A stretch of DNA of 32,000 bases from an archaeon (GTDB lineage: Archaea > Asgardarchaeota > Thorarchaeia > Thorarchaeales > Thorarchaeaceae), in the NCBI GenBank assembly GCA_024275415.1, contig JAJRZD010000049.1, forward strand, positions 17,614 to 49,613. The letters run 5' to 3'. Every line of letters starts with the position of its first letter. Position 1 is the first letter of the stretch. Under the pieces are notes generated by a model. It searched no databases and was not told the origin of the DNA. It worked only from the letters and a program-made list of their open reading frames with translations. Below are positions 22,105-25,003 of the stretch, piece after piece. The position numbers and the translations under genes are program-made.

Positions 22105-22178
22105 CCGCGAAGCAATGAGGGTACTGCACTTGCCAACATCTTTATGACCATAAGGAATCTTCACATACAGTGAGTGAG

Positions 22179-23465
22179 ATGAAGGCGCTTGTATTAACAG
22201 CTGGGATTGGCAATCGACTCCGACCACTGACAGCAAAGCGATCAAAATCGATGCTTATGATCGCTGGGAAGCCAGTACTGAGCTACATTTTTGAGAGTCT
22301 AAAAGAAAACGGGATCAAAGATGTGGTCGTTGTCACTGGTCACGGCAGGGAGGAGATAATAAACCGATTCCAGCATGGTGGTAATCTTGGTATCAAAATC
22401 AGGTATGCCCTCCAGCACAAGCAGAAAGGAGTAGAGAATGCAATCCTGACAGCAAAGGACGAACTTGAATCAGAAGAAGAATTCCTGCTCATCAATGGCG
22501 ATGTCCTAGTTGAGCCTGACATGATCCGCCGCACTCTAGGCAGCCATGAATCCATGGACGCGCATACAACCATGCTGGTGACGCTTGTTTCGAACCCGCA
22601 ACAGTTTGGCACAGTAAAGATTGGGAAGAATGGTATGGTCGAAAAGCTTGTGGAGAAGGGCGGTCCAGAACGCTATGTCAGCAATTATGCAGTTGCCGGG
22701 GTTTCCGTTTTCAATTCTGAGATTTTGACCTATCTTGAGAAATACAAGACCATGGAGAATGCAGTAGAGCACATGATTACCACAAAGCAAAACGTTGTGG
22801 CTTGTGTCTGGGAAAAGGAATGGGCCGAGTTCACTTGGCCATGGGATATCCTGAAAGCAAACAGAATCGTCATGGATCGGAAGCTGAAAGGAAAAGGGAG
22901 TTATATTTCTGAAACAGCAGATATCCATGACAGTGTAACAATCGAAGGCCCGGTGTATATTGATGATGCTGCTGTCATTCGTCCTCACTCTTCAGTAAAA
23001 GGACCCGTCTGGATAGGAAAGCGTGTCTTTATCGGCAATAATTCGCTTGTCCGCGATTATGCGAGCCTATGTGAGGATGTCCACATCGGGTATTCCGTAG
23101 AGATACGGAATAGTATGATCTTTGACAAGGTAGATGTGGGCAGGATGACCTACATAGCTGACTCTCTCATTGGGGCAGGGAGCTGTATCGAGGCTGGGGC
23201 ACAGCTCTGGAACTGGAGACCTGGAAGCGAACCTTTCTATCTTGATACAAATGGGAATAAGGTACAGATCCCACTAAGCAAGTTTGGAGCGATTATCGGA
23301 GACAGTGTAGTCATTGGCGTGAATACCTCCATATATCCAGCCCGCAGGATAGGTGAAGGTAGTTTCATTGCTCCCGGTTGTGTGATTGACCGAGACATCC
23401 CGCCCTACAGCGAAGTCCATATGAAACAGGAGTTAATCCTTTCAGAAAGGACTTCGAAGTGCTAG
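22179..23465 (+). CDS. Sugar-phosphate nucleotidyltransferase with a left-handed beta-helix (archaeal GlmU-like)
   Basis: MKALVLTAGIGNRLRPLT...K...GKPVL and NGD, then hexapeptide repeats (IEGPVYI...VKGPVWIG...GAIIGDSVVIGVN). Confidence 0.9.
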   Translation: MKALVLTAGIGNRLRPLTAKRSKSMLMIAGKPVLSYIFESLKENGIKDVVVVTGHGREEIINRFQHGGNLGIKIRYALQHKQKGVENAILTAKDELESEEEFLLINGDVLVEPDMIRRTLGSHESMDAHTTMLVTLVSNPQQFGTVKIGKNGMVEKLVEKGGPERYVSNYAVAGVSVFNSEILTYLEKYKTMENAVEHMITTKQNVVACVWEKEWAEFTWPWDILKANRIVMDRKLKGKGSYISETADIHDSVTIEGPVYIDDAAVIRPHSSVKGPVWIGKRVFIGNNSLVRDYASLCEDVHIGYSVEIRNSMIFDKVDVGRMTYIADSLIGAGSCIEAGAQLWNWRPGSEPFYLDTNGNKVQIPLSKFGAIIGDSVVIGVNTSIYPARRIGEGSFIAPGCVIDRDIPPYSEVHMKQELILSERTSKC

Positions 23466-23594
23466 TGACCCTGCCAAACCACATACCAACACATTCCAAG
23501 TGTAGAAGCGACGTAAACCTATGAGCATCTTTTTAAGCCAAACTCTAGACAATGGCGATGAACTGCGGAACAAGATTAATGGAGAGTAATTACT

Positions 23595-24485
23595 ATTAGC
23601 CGCAAGAAATGGGGAAAATCTACCATAAAGACCGAGAAGGTTATCCGTGCTGCAATTCCAAAACCAGAAACATTGGCAGAGATTGACCAATACCTGAGCA
23701 AAGCACGATCTATAACTCCGTACGATTTGGCAAATCGATTTGGAATTCGGATGAGCGTAGCTCGAAAACTGTTACGTCAGAAAGAAACAGAAGGAGTAGT
23801 GGTGCCTTATATCCGCGGAGGCGGCTTTGTTGTGTATTCTACCCCTGCTGAGATTGCTAGGCGTGAAGGAGGCACTCCTATAATGACTGCGGATGTCTTG
23901 AAGGAGATATCATCATCAGTTTCACATGAAACTGTATTCGATGAAGAGATGGAAGCCGCTCTTGCCGCTGCTGCTTCTTCAGCCGGAACTATCGTCAAGC
24001 CTAGTAAATTGGCAAGAAAGCGACGTGAGGTCGGCGAGAGAAAAGAACGAAAGGAAACGCGTCCTGAAATAGTAGTTGAGCCTCTGACAGAGGAAACACC
24101 TCCAGTCCCAGAACCCCCCAAGGTGGAGGAGAAACCCAAGGAGGCTGCTAAGAAACCAAAGAAGGAAGAAAAGCCCAAGAAGGCTGCTCCAAAGACAGAA
24201 CCAAAGAAGGCTGACAAGAAACCCAAAAAGGAATCCAAGACAACTGCCAAAAAACCTGCGGCCAAGAAGGTTCGCAAACCAGAACTCGTTGATATCGAGG
24301 GTGTTGGTCCCAAAAAGGCAGAGAAAATTCGAGAAAGCGGTTTCAAGACTGTTGCAGCAATATCCAAGACCACAGCTGAAAAGCTCTCCAAGAAAGTTTC
24401 GGGAATCTCAGAGACCACAGCTCAGCATTACATCGATTCAGCCAAGAAACTAATTGAAGAATATGAAAAGGCCAAGGCACAATAG
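23595..24485 (+). CDS. rps25e: 30S ribosomal protein eS25 fused via a K/E/P/A linker to a helix-hairpin-helix domain; probable ATT start
   Basis: RKKWGK...ITPYDLANRFGIRMSVARKLL...GVV...VVY is the eS25 winged helix. C-terminal LVDIEGVGPKKAEKIRESGF...VSGISETTA is HhH-like. No ATG/GTG/TTG lies in frame between the TAA at 23577 and the TTG at 23673. Confidence 0.85.
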   Translation: MSRKKWGKSTIKTEKVIRAAIPKPETLAEIDQYLSKARSITPYDLANRFGIRMSVARKLLRQKETEGVVVPYIRGGGFVVYSTPAEIARREGGTPIMTADVLKEISSSVSHETVFDEEMEAALAAAASSAGTIVKPSKLARKRREVGERKERKETRPEIVVEPLTEETPPVPEPPKVEEKPKEAAKKPKKEEKPKKAAPKTEPKKADKKPKKESKTTAKKPAAKKVRKPELVDIEGVGPKKAEKIRESGFKTVAAISKTTAEKLSKKVSGISETTAQHYIDSAKKLIEEYEKAKAQ

Positions 24486-24505
24486 AACGCAACTCGCGGT
24501 GATAC

Positions 24506-24530
24506 GGAGGTAGTCCTAGAGATTACCTCC
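24506..24530. terminator. 10-bp hairpin downstream of rps25e
   Basis: GGAGGTAGTC-CTAGA-GATTACCTCC, about 20 nt after the stop codon; no long T-tract. Confidence 0.4.
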
Positions 24531-25003
24531 ATGCTATCGTTTATTGTAAGTTGTACAATCTTGGACACCAGAGTGTTGTACTCCCAGACAACGGCATTGG
24601 GAACGACTCCGTGAGGTTCTACATGTGTCATGGATTCCCTCACCGAGTATGTTTTGTCGAAACTATACACGCACCCACAACAAGATGTCCATGATCGTCT
24701 AGGTCTTGTACAGCTGTTGTCAACCTCATTCTCTGGCTCTAGCAACGAAACTGAATCCGTTATGGGTGCCAGTGCCATGCCATTTGTTGGTAAGTCTTAA
24801 GACCATTCTCTCAATTCACTTCTCAGAATTTCCTCTTAGGAACAGCCCTCGGATAATTTGAATAACCTTTCTTTTGACGCGAAAAACATGTGCATGTAAT
24901 TACCAAATAGAAAGTTCGAAAGCAAGTCATATTGAAATTGATGGCCCAAAAACTTGGATAATCTGAATGAGGTTTCAAGGGCGTCGCAGTAATATAGAAG
25001 CTG

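What the first reader, a model, noticed from the sequence alone, without database searches (positions are those of the whole stretch)
23850..24485. eS25 carries a ~200-aa extension ending in a helix-hairpin-helix domain
Seen: after the eS25 winged helix come a helical segment, an Ala run, a basic RKRREVGERKERKE patch, a histone-H1-like K/P/A/E linker (KKPKKEEKPKKAAPKTEPKKADKKPKK), and a tandem HhH domain (~24280-24455). Established: eS25 is normally about 100-125 aa, and such HhH domains bind nucleic acid non-specifically (RadA N-terminus, some haloarchaeal r-protein extensions). Inference: a tethered nucleic-acid-binding arm on the small-subunit head that could capture mRNA or link ribosomes to RNA polymerase or DNA.
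Basis: partly seen in the sequence, partly recalled or inferred. Interest (0 to 1): 0.62.

Follow-up and report, generated by a model that had tools for sequence, protein, structure and literature searches.

The report
Thorarchaeal eS25 with tethered HhH arm
The only gene for small-subunit ribosomal protein eS25 in this Asgard (Thorarchaeia) genome is three times the usual length, ending in a floppy lysine-rich leash and a small helix-hairpin-helix domain; the design is real, but what the arm binds is untested.

Summary
The gene is the genome's only eS25. It most likely starts at ATT 23595, not at any ATG/GTG/TTG, and ends at 24485 (296 aa).

The protein has four parts:
- residues 1-82: the eS25 motif and winged helix;
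- residues 83-165: a conserved helical and basic block found only in this class;
- residues 166-227: a disordered K/P/E/A leash, net charge about +11;
- residues 228-296: a confident (HhH)2 domain.

All 67 Thorarchaeia genomes with a detectable eS25 have one long eS25. About 270 other Asgard genomes with a match have the ordinary ~90-140 aa form.

The HhH cap is patchy. It occurs in 9 of 17 genera in 1-2 copies and has been gained or lost several times. Forms without it carry a tail about twice as long and three times as cationic.

The same module sits at the N-terminus of large-subunit protein eL32 in most of the class. The eS25 copies are not monophyletic against the eL32 copies (AU p = 0.0006), so the module has moved between the two genes. 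In this genome it also sits on Rpo6, topoisomerase VI-A and RadA.

Best reading (about 0.45): a ribosome-anchored flexible tether that binds duplex nucleic acid without sequence preference, as Caulobacter PhaH does. Binding is untested. This scan has already found similar HhH arms on other archaeal ribosomal proteins. I found no paper describing this one.

The parts
23529..23537 (+). TATA-like promoter box (CTTTTTAAG; CTTTAAAAG in relatives), about 60 nt before the start codon
   Evidence: Conserved at the same distance in the nucleotide alignment of 65 Thorarchaeia eS25 loci. The promoter role is inferred from the archaeal TATA consensus.
23580..23587 (+). Shine-Dalgarno-like element TGGAGAGT ((T)AGGAGAGT in relatives)
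   Evidence: Conserved at the DNA level whatever its reading frame, and it holds an in-frame TAG in several genera. It is complementary to the CCUCC at the 16S 3' end seen in relatives.
23595..24485 (+). eS25 coding sequence: ATT start, TAG stop, 296 aa
   Evidence: A TAA at 23577 closes the frame upstream, and there is no ATG/GTG/TTG before 23673. Yet protein conservation runs from SRKKWGKS onward. The homologous codon is ATG/GTG/TTG in 12 genomes and ATT/ATC in 52 of 67. This is the only eS25 in the genome.
23595..23840 (+). eS25 core: basic N-terminal KKW motif (residues 1-25) and winged helix (residues 26-82)
   Evidence: PF03297, 43.5 bits. The PDB profile search aligns residues 3-83 to eS25 chains. 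Foldseek gives rmsd 1.2-2 A to eS25 in solved ribosomes. VIA gives Z 10.7 to P. calidifontis eS25.
23841..24089 (+). Class-specific conserved extension (residues 83-165): three helices (84-91, 98-108, 117-130), a basic helix (136-152) and the PEIVVEPL motif
   Evidence: Conserved in all Thorarchaeia eS25, with K135 invariant and A126, P136, R143, R144, K150, P157, E158 and P163 nearly invariant. pLDDT is 64-91. There is no Pfam or PDB sequence match. It is absent from other Asgard eS25.
24090..24275 (+). Disordered Pro/Glu then K/P/E/A (histone-H1-like) linker, residues 166-227
   Evidence: pLDDT is below 50. A degenerate 21-nt tandem repeat lies at 24130-24231. Linker length and repeat number vary widely among relatives.
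24276..24482 (+). (HhH)2 domain, residues 228-296, with hairpins GVG and SGIS
   Evidence: PF14520, 46.9 bits. RadA N-terminus, E = 2e-9. P. furiosus Rad51, E = 2.6e-7. pLDDT 96-98. VIA Z 9.6/9.5 to NusA AR1/AR2 and 8.8 to the Rad51 N-terminal domain. The hairpin glycines are invariant in 22 eS25 copies.
24489..24554 (+). Hairpin after the stop codon, followed by a T-rich run (possible terminator)
   Evidence: RNA fold -25.2 kcal/mol, z = -3.3 against shuffles. The function is inferred.

Best explanation
This is the genome's single gene for ribosomal protein eS25, translated from a weak ATT start codon.

The core (residues 1-82) should sit at the usual eS25 site on top of the small-subunit head. 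A block found only in Thorarchaeia (residues 83-165: acidic helices, then a basic helix) most likely lies on the ribosome surface and anchors the rest. From there a disordered, lysine-rich leash of about 60 residues carries a folded (HhH)2 domain.

The most likely mechanism is a flexible, polycationic tether. Its tip grips the backbone of duplex nucleic acid without sequence preference. The most probable ligand is chromosomal DNA (the nucleoid); structured RNA is the alternative. A matching arm on eL32 of the large subunit would act in parallel. In relatives without the HhH cap, a tail twice as long and about three times as cationic would do the same job, much as histone-like tails and HhH domains replace one another in bacterial granule-to-nucleoid tethers.

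Shown here: the gene, its domains, their conservation, and the movement of the module between eS25 and eL32. Inferred: residence on the ribosome, anchoring by the middle block, and any binding.
For: Identity and anatomy:
- Pfam places eS25 and HHH_5 on one frame.
- It is the only eS25 in a 92.9%-complete genome.
- Fold matches to eS25 in solved ribosomes: rmsd 1.2-2 A and Z 10.7.
- The AlphaFold2 model shows two confident domains joined by a stretch with pLDDT below 50.

Conservation:
- 67 of 67 Thorarchaeia genomes with an eS25 match have the long form.
- All 24 high-quality genomes have exactly one.
- Other Asgard genomes have the short form.

The tail behaves as one functional unit:
- HhH-bearing forms have a linker of median 66 aa and net charge +10.5.
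- HhH-less forms have a tail of median 127 aa and net charge +30.
- The same contrast holds inside the window's own genus.

The role belongs to the ribosome as a whole:
- eL32 carries 1-4 copies of the same module in most genera.
- The eS25 copies are interleaved with eL32 copies on the domain tree. The g13 eS25 domain 1 is sister to the g13 eL32 domain 1 (support 100/96), and the g10 eS25 copy lies inside an eL32 clade (98/84). Monophyly of the eS25 copies is rejected (AU p = 0.0006).

Pointers to nucleic acid as the ligand:
- The closest sequence families are the RadA/Rad51 N-terminal domain and the topoisomerase V HhH repeats.
- Both hairpins keep their glycines in all copies.
- In this genome the other carriers are Rpo6, topoisomerase VI-A and RadA, all DNA-associated, plus one membrane protein.
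- The one tested protein of the same cargo-linker-HhH design, Caulobacter PhaH, binds DNA non-specifically through its HhH and holds granules on the nucleoid (PMC13052382). There is a weak NCBIfam match to PhaH, E = 0.045.
Against: - No binding of any kind was tested.
- The HhH cores carry little net charge: eS25 copies have median -1 and range -6 to +3, and extra eL32 copies go down to -9.
- The top structural matches are NusA AR1/AR2, which bind proteins, not DNA.
- The cap has been lost repeatedly, even within the genus, so it is dispensable.
- Packing of the middle block is only moderately confident: pLDDT falls to 64-76 when it is modelled alone.
- Residence of the long protein on the ribosome is assumed only because it is the sole eS25.
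Confidence: 0.45

Rival explanations
1. The HhH domain is a protein-docking module, like the NusA acidic repeats that bind the RNA polymerase alpha-CTD or lambda N, or like the ERCC1-XPF (HhH)2 pairing. It would recruit a partner such as RNA polymerase, a helicase or a recombinase, or another HhH arm, to the ribosome. The lysine-rich leash would be only a spacer.
For: - The best structural matches of the domain are NusA AR1 (Z 9.6) and AR2 (Z 9.5).
- Many copies are neutral to acidic.
- The same module sits on Rpo6 of RNA polymerase in this genome and in published Thorarchaeota Rpo6 models (PMC13257274).
- Movement of the module between eS25 and eL32 would also suit a shared protein partner.
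Against: - By sequence the nearest families are the DNA-binding RadA/Rad51 N-terminal domain and topoisomerase V repeats.
- HhH-less relatives compensate with more positive charge, not with another fold. That fits a polyanion as ligand.
- PhaH, which has the same design, binds DNA.
Confidence: 0.2
2. The whole extension, HhH included, is an internal structural element. It lies on the ribosome's own rRNA, as eukaryotic ribosomal-protein extensions do, and stabilises the small-subunit head or helps its assembly.
For: - The middle block (residues 83-165) is conserved across the class and has a basic helix typical of rRNA-binding extensions.
- HhH-like folds do bind rRNA; uS13-type matches appear among the profile hits.
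Against: - The HhH cap varies from 0 to 2 copies, even within one genus.
- Linker length varies from 37 to 162 aa, with repeat expansion, and the linker is predicted disordered. A fixed rRNA contact would not tolerate that.
- The two complete Thorarchaeia 16S genes I could read share no head insertion that could serve as a partner (very small sample).
Confidence: 0.15
3. The HhH cap is a nearly neutral passenger. It is a promiscuous small domain that spreads among genes with low-complexity linkers by recombination and has no specific role on eS25.
For: - Distribution is patchy, with at least 8 changes on the core tree.
- The module sits on many unrelated hosts in the same genomes, with up to 21 matches per genome.
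- The linkers are repeat-rich and prone to recombination.
Against: - The hairpin glycines and core alanines are invariant in all 22 eS25 copies, although overall identity is only 30-74%. That indicates purifying selection.
- The domain is retained in 9 genera.
- Tail charge compensates when it is absent.
Confidence: 0.1

Closest known systems
Haloarchaeal eL32 (L32e) with an N-terminal HhH domain (NCBIfam NF009401/PRK12766; PDB 1JJ2 chain X, 1S72 chain Y, 9L94 chain Q)
   Same: A ribosomal protein joined through a low-complexity linker to one (HhH)2 domain. The window's HhH matches it by sequence (E = 1e-5; 6e-4). Thorarchaeia eL32 has the same layout.
   Different: The host protein, the subunit and the end of the protein all differ: here it is eS25, on the small-subunit head, at the C-terminus. 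The linker here is lysine-rich and not acidic. The function of the haloarchaeal domain is also unknown. From memory, it is not ordered in the H. marismortui crystal structures; I did not check this here.
Caulobacter crescentus phasin PhaH (NCBIfam NF045508)
   Same: The same cargo-domain / low-complexity-linker / C-terminal-HhH design. Its HhH binds DNA non-specifically and holds the cargo on the nucleoid (PMC13052382). There is a weak sequence match over linker plus HhH (E = 0.045).
   Different: It is bacterial and its cargo is a storage granule, not a ribosome. The match is far below the family cut-off, so this is an analogy of design and not membership.
RadA/Rad51 N-terminal (HhH)2 domain (TIGR02236; PDB 1PZN, 3LDA)
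   Same: It is the closest sequence family of the cap (E = 2e-9; 2.6e-7). The fold is the same (Z 8.8, rmsd 2.7 A over 64 residues), as is the GVG ... GIS hairpin pair.
   Different: There is no recombinase ATPase domain. The genome has its own RadA elsewhere.
Long-form bacterial bL21 and bS2 with a C-terminal linker and HhH (NCBIfam NF008916/PRK12278, NF008966/PRK12311)
   Same: A ribosomal protein followed by an Ala/Pro/Lys-rich linker and a C-terminal HhH. Matches are weak: E = 2.9e-5 and 7e-3. P0120 and P0121 are examples.
   Different: They are bacterial, the host proteins are unrelated, and their function is equally unknown.
Canonical archaeal eS25 (Saccharolobus solfataricus, PDB 9FHL chain c; Pyrobaculum calidifontis, 9E71 chain BW)
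   Same: The winged-helix core is the same (35% identity over 65-75 aligned residues; Z 8.5-10.7). [quoted passage not shown]
   Different: The Thorarchaeia protein begins directly at the KKW motif, which aligns to about residue 28 of the S. solfataricus protein. It therefore lacks the Gly-Gly N-terminal tail that reaches uS13 near the P site. It adds about 210 residues at the C-terminus.

Membership tests
Ribosomal protein eS25 (Pfam PF03297) | Sequence match to the family profile above the curated cut-off | tested here: met
   43.5 bits against a cut-off of 28.8. The genome search gives 46.8 bits.
Ribosomal protein eS25 (Pfam PF03297) | Winged-helix fold superposable on eS25 in solved ribosomes | tested here: met
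   Foldseek: rmsd 1.2-2.0 A over 62-66 residues, target TM about 0.8. VIA: Z 10.7 to 9e7f_BW.
Ribosomal protein eS25 (Pfam PF03297) | Sole copy in the genome, so it must supply the ribosomal function | tested here: met
   There is one match over the cut-off. The next best has E = 0.0086 and lies in an unrelated frame. Every relative has one copy.
Ribosomal protein eS25 (Pfam PF03297) | Physical presence in the small subunit | not testable with these tools
   This needs ribosome proteomics or cryo-EM.
(HhH)2 domain, HHH_5 / RadA N-terminal type (Pfam PF14520) | Profile match above the cut-off | tested here: met
   46.9 bits against a cut-off of 27.
(HhH)2 domain, HHH_5 / RadA N-terminal type (Pfam PF14520) | Two helix-hairpin-helix motifs with Gly-hydrophobic-Gly/Ser hairpins | tested here: met
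   GVG and SGIS are present in the window. G13, G15 and G47 are invariant in 22 eS25 copies.
(HhH)2 domain, HHH_5 / RadA N-terminal type (Pfam PF14520) | Five-helix (HhH)2 fold | tested here: met
   pLDDT 96-98. Z 9.6 to NusA AR1, 8.8 to the Rad51 N-terminal domain and 8.2 to the RAD51C N-terminal domain.
(HhH)2 domain, HHH_5 / RadA N-terminal type (Pfam PF14520) | Sequence-independent binding of duplex nucleic acid | not testable with these tools
   This needs gel-shift or anisotropy assays. Net charge of the core is only +3 here and has a median of -1 in relatives.
Ribosomal proteins with a tethered HhH arm (haloarchaeal eL32 type) | A ribosomal-protein core, a low-complexity linker and a terminal HhH domain on one polypeptide, conserved in relatives | tested here: met
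   The fusion occurs in 9 of 17 genera of the class.
PhaH-type nucleoid tether | Membership of NCBIfam NF045508 | tested here: not met
   13.9 bits against a cut-off of 250. This is a resemblance of design only.
PhaH-type nucleoid tether | The cargo is held on the nucleoid through the HhH domain | not testable with these tools
   This needs localisation or fractionation experiments.

The most novel reading that the evidence does not exclude
In Thorarchaeia both ribosomal subunits (eS25 on the small-subunit head, eL32 on the large subunit) and RNA polymerase (Rpo6) carry interchangeable HhH arms on flexible leashes. These arms could hold all three on the chromosome. That would give nucleoid-bound translation, and a factor-independent physical route to transcription-translation coupling, in close archaeal relatives of eukaryotes.
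Probability: 0.15. Interest if true: 0.8.

Novelty: new variant of a known kind. Interest (0 to 1): 0.5.

Why it matters
eS25 sits on the small-subunit head by the E and P sites and matters for unusual initiation modes in eukaryotes. Its archaeal role is barely studied.

A whole class of Asgard archaea has tripled its length with a conserved block and a polycationic leash. Many lineages add a DNA-repair-type HhH domain that also sits on eL32 and on RNA polymerase subunit Rpo6.

If these arms bind DNA, Thorarchaeia ribosomes are physically tied to the nucleoid. That bears on how transcription and translation were organised in the lineage that gave rise to eukaryotes.

There are practical consequences too:
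- Gene callers truncate this protein, because of its ATT start.
- Annotators name it 'helix-hairpin-helix domain-containing protein', 'histone H1/5' or 'TonB'. eS25 can therefore be scored as missing or mis-sized in surveys of Asgard ribosomal proteins.

Tried and rejected
- Pairing of the eS25 HhH with the eL32 HhH (complex prediction): no support, and no verdict either way.
- Public sequencing runs holding this stretch: none was listed, and no RNA holder was listed.
- Ongoing gene conversion between the eS25 and eL32 HhH cassettes, as the scan saw for uS3/eL32 in another archaeon: not found. Within-genome DNA identity is 55-73%, and the longest exact match in an alignment over 100 nt is 16 nt. 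The exchanges are therefore old.
- A 16S head expansion shared across the class that could partner the middle block. The window genome's own 16S is cut at about position 850. Two complete Thorarchaeia 16S genes share only an insertion site near position 876 (47 nt and 849 nt, probably intron-related) and no common head insertion. The sample is too small to conclude anything.
- A known fold or family for residues 83-165. There is no Pfam or NCBIfam hit and no PDB profile hit beyond residue ~92. The fold searches were filled by the winged helix and the HhH. When modelled alone, pLDDT is only 64-76, so I ran no separate fold search. This does not show that the fold is new.
- DDRGK1 similarity (PF09756 precomputed on three homologs; PDB 1WI9/8C0D at E = 0.002-0.01). 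It covers only the winged helix, so it reflects the shared winged-helix fold and nothing in the extension.
- Literature: no paper describes the eS25 extension. One paper notes an HhH-type segment on Thorarchaeota Rpo6.
- Chimeric assembly or a second standard eS25: rejected.

Full report
**The gene and its start**

The reading frame that holds the finding is open from 23580 to the TAG at 24483-24485. Pfam places Ribosomal_S25 (43.5 bits, cut-off 28.8) and HHH_5 (46.9 bits, cut-off 27) on this one frame.

No ATG, GTG or TTG lies in frame before 23673, and a TAA at 23577 closes the frame upstream. Yet protein-level conservation with relatives starts at SRKKWGKS, 26 codons before 23673.

I aligned the DNA of 65 Thorarchaeia loci. 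It shows:
- a TATA-like box;
- an AGGAGAGT element conserved whatever its frame, complementary to the CCUCC at the 16S 3' end;
- 10-13 nt further on, the codon that directly precedes Ser-[R/K]-K-K-W.

That codon is ATG, GTG or TTG in 12 genomes and ATT or ATC in 52 of 67. The gene here therefore most likely starts at ATT 23595 and encodes 296 residues. The genome's own gene call (P0002, 244 aa from an internal ATG) is truncated. The scan had already noted this start codon (e1-5424355). I reached the same conclusion independently.

**Identity**

The genome is 3.5 Mb in 127 contigs and 92.9% complete. It has a single eS25 match above the Pfam cut-off.

The AlphaFold2 model built on 46 homologs gives:
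- pLDDT above 90 for the winged helix (residues 24-82);
- 80-91 for three further helices (84-91, 98-108, 117-130);
- about 70 for a basic helix (136-152);
- below 50 for most of 164-220;
- 96-98 for residues 228-296.

Foldseek's best hits are eS25 chains of solved ribosomes (rmsd 1.2-2 A over 62-66 residues). VIA-align gives Z 10.7 to Pyrobaculum calidifontis eS25. For the C-terminal domain it gives Z 9.6 and 9.5 to NusA AR1 and AR2 and 8.8 to the Rad51 N-terminal domain.

By sequence, the C-terminal domain is closest to the RadA N-terminus (E = 2e-9), P. furiosus Rad51 (2.6e-7) and topoisomerase V repeats. The linker (residues 177-227) has 22 K+R, 8 D+E, 7 P and 8 A in 51 residues. It overlaps a degenerate 21-nt tandem repeat.

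**Distribution**

Homologs of 165-370 aa in public protein sets are almost all labelled Thorarchaeota.

In the genome collection, 67 of 87 genomes of the window's class have an eS25 match, one each. All 24 high-quality genomes are among them. Their stop-to-stop frames are 165-414 aa. The shortest are cut by contig ends, and several of the longest contain scaffold gaps.

In a sample of 400 genomes of the phylum, eS25 frames outside this class are about 85-140 aa. I read eight of them. Seven end within 15 residues of the winged helix. One (G215) has an unrelated 95-aa K/E/T-rich tail.

The first 165 residues are conserved throughout the class (mean column identity 63%; K135 invariant; R143, R144, K150 and P157 nearly so). 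The only genome of the sister family (G001) has the core and a short K/S/T-rich tail, but no middle block and no HhH.

**The HhH cap is optional and mobile**

A profile of the cap finds it on eS25 in 9 of 17 genera:
- the window's genus: 4 of 6 species, one of them split only by a scaffold gap;
- g3, g4, g7, g10 and g14;
- g13 and g15, which carry two copies;
- a single species of g11.

It is absent from g2, g6, g8, g9, g12, g16, g17 and the rest of g11. No frame-shifted copy lies downstream in those loci. On a tree of the conserved core, presence needs at least 8 changes, of which strongly supported branches force 3 (quick tree).

Where the cap is absent, the tail is longer and more cationic: median 127 aa and net +30, against 66 aa and net +10.5. 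The contrast also holds within the window's genus: +22 and +46 against +11 to +18. These genomes are related, so this is a pattern and not a statistical test.

**The same module on eL32 and elsewhere**

In this genome the nearest relatives of the cap lie on five other proteins, all confirmed by Pfam:
- eL32: N-terminal HhH, a K/P/E linker, then the L32e domain;
- topoisomerase VI subunit A: two copies;
- RNA polymerase subunit Rpo6;
- a membrane protein;
- RadA.

Across the class, eL32 is 247-453 aa, and it carries 1-4 N-terminal HhH copies in 10 of the 12 genera of the window's family whose eL32 loci I read. In g2 and g8 it has a long K-rich extension without HhH. The sister-family genome has a plain 136-aa eL32.

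On a tree of 64 HhH domains, the eS25 copies are interleaved with eL32 copies:
- g13 eS25 domain 1 is sister to g13 eL32 domain 1 (support 100/96);
- the g10 eS25 copy lies inside an eL32 clade (98/84);
- the g1 and G034 eS25 copies form their own group.

The AU test rejects a single eS25 clade (p = 0.0006). The alignment has only 71 columns, so most deep forks are unresolved. Within genomes the two cassettes share only 55-73% DNA identity, with no long identical tracts. The transfers are therefore old and not ongoing gene conversion.

**What it most likely does**

From the S. solfataricus 30S structures, the eS25 core sits at the top of the head (PMC11698992). The conserved middle block has acidic helices followed by a basic helix, so it looks like a surface-bound ribosomal-protein extension. 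This is inference.

Beyond it, the variable, repeat-built, disordered and polycationic stretch with a folded tip is the anatomy of a tether. Three observations point to a polyanionic, sequence-independent ligand such as DNA:
1. Charge compensates when the cap is missing.
2. The module's other hosts in this genome are mostly DNA enzymes.
3. The one tested protein of this design, Caulobacter PhaH, binds DNA non-specifically through its HhH and keeps granules on the nucleoid. PhaM and PhaF do the same with histone-like tails (PMC13052382).

Two observations cut the other way. The HhH cores are near neutral (eS25 median -1; the window's copy, at +3, is among the most basic). And the top structural neighbours, the NusA acidic repeats, bind proteins.

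I therefore put the nucleic-acid tether at about 0.45, a protein-docking role at 0.2, an internal rRNA-binding role at 0.15 and a near-neutral passenger at 0.1.

**Comparison with what is known**

Tethered HhH domains on ribosomal proteins are on record for haloarchaeal eL32 and for long-form bacterial bL21 and bS2 (NCBIfam models). None has a known function.

This scan has also noted such arms on uS4, uL24, eL33, eL13 and uS3 of other archaea. The eS25 case is thus a further host, not a new principle.

I found no paper describing the eS25 extension. One 2026 paper mentions an HhH-type segment on Thorarchaeota Rpo6.

Specific to this case:
- a class-wide conserved block on eS25;
- the interchange between an H1-like tail and an HhH cap;
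- the pairing with eL32 across the two subunits;
- the weak ATT/ATC start.

Noticed in passing
window 23577-23597: eS25 has no canonical start codon. Comparison of 67 loci puts the start at ATT 23595, behind a conserved AGGAG-type ribosome-binding site. The homologous codon is ATT/ATC in 52 genomes and ATG/GTG/TTG in 12. The scan already recorded this as e1-5424355.
   Followed up: yes
G000:C73, locus L037 1495-2364 (+): The genome's eL32 is 290 aa: an N-terminal HHH_5 domain, a K/P/E linker of about 90 aa, then the L32e domain. Across the class eL32 carries 1-4 such domains (four in genus g14).
   Followed up: yes
locus L039 1405-2094 (+): RNA polymerase subunit Rpo6 (Rpb6 domain) carries an N-terminal HHH_5 domain. 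A 2026 paper (PMC13257274) notes a similar segment in Thorarchaeota Rpo6.
   Followed up: partly
locus L038 994-3147 (+): Topoisomerase VI subunit A is 718 aa. Two HhH domains flanked by lysine-rich low-complexity stretches (about 430 aa in all) precede the TP6A_N and Toprim domains.
   Followed up: no
locus L040 1495-3186 (-): A multi-pass membrane protein of about 560 aa ends in an HHH_5 domain. No other Pfam family matched.
   Followed up: no
window 23595-23669: Thorarchaeia eS25 begins directly at the KKW motif, which aligns to about residue 28 of S. solfataricus eS25. It therefore lacks the Gly-Gly N-terminal tail reported to contact uS13 near the P site.
   Followed up: partly
loci L118, L120, L121: The genome's 16S gene stops at a contig end near position 850. 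Two relatives carry insertions of 47 nt and 849 nt at about position 876, probably an intron site. That may be why the assembly breaks there.
   Followed up: partly
locus L110 (genome G215, another Asgard family): This eS25 has an unrelated C-terminal tail of about 95 aa rich in K, E and T, with no middle block and no HhH. It looks like an independent extension.
   Followed up: no
window 22170-23465 (+): The upstream neighbour is an NTP-transferase with a left-handed beta-helix. It just reaches the cut-off of the eIF2B-epsilon LbH family (54.6 bits against 54). eS25 is not in a ribosomal-protein operon.
   Followed up: no
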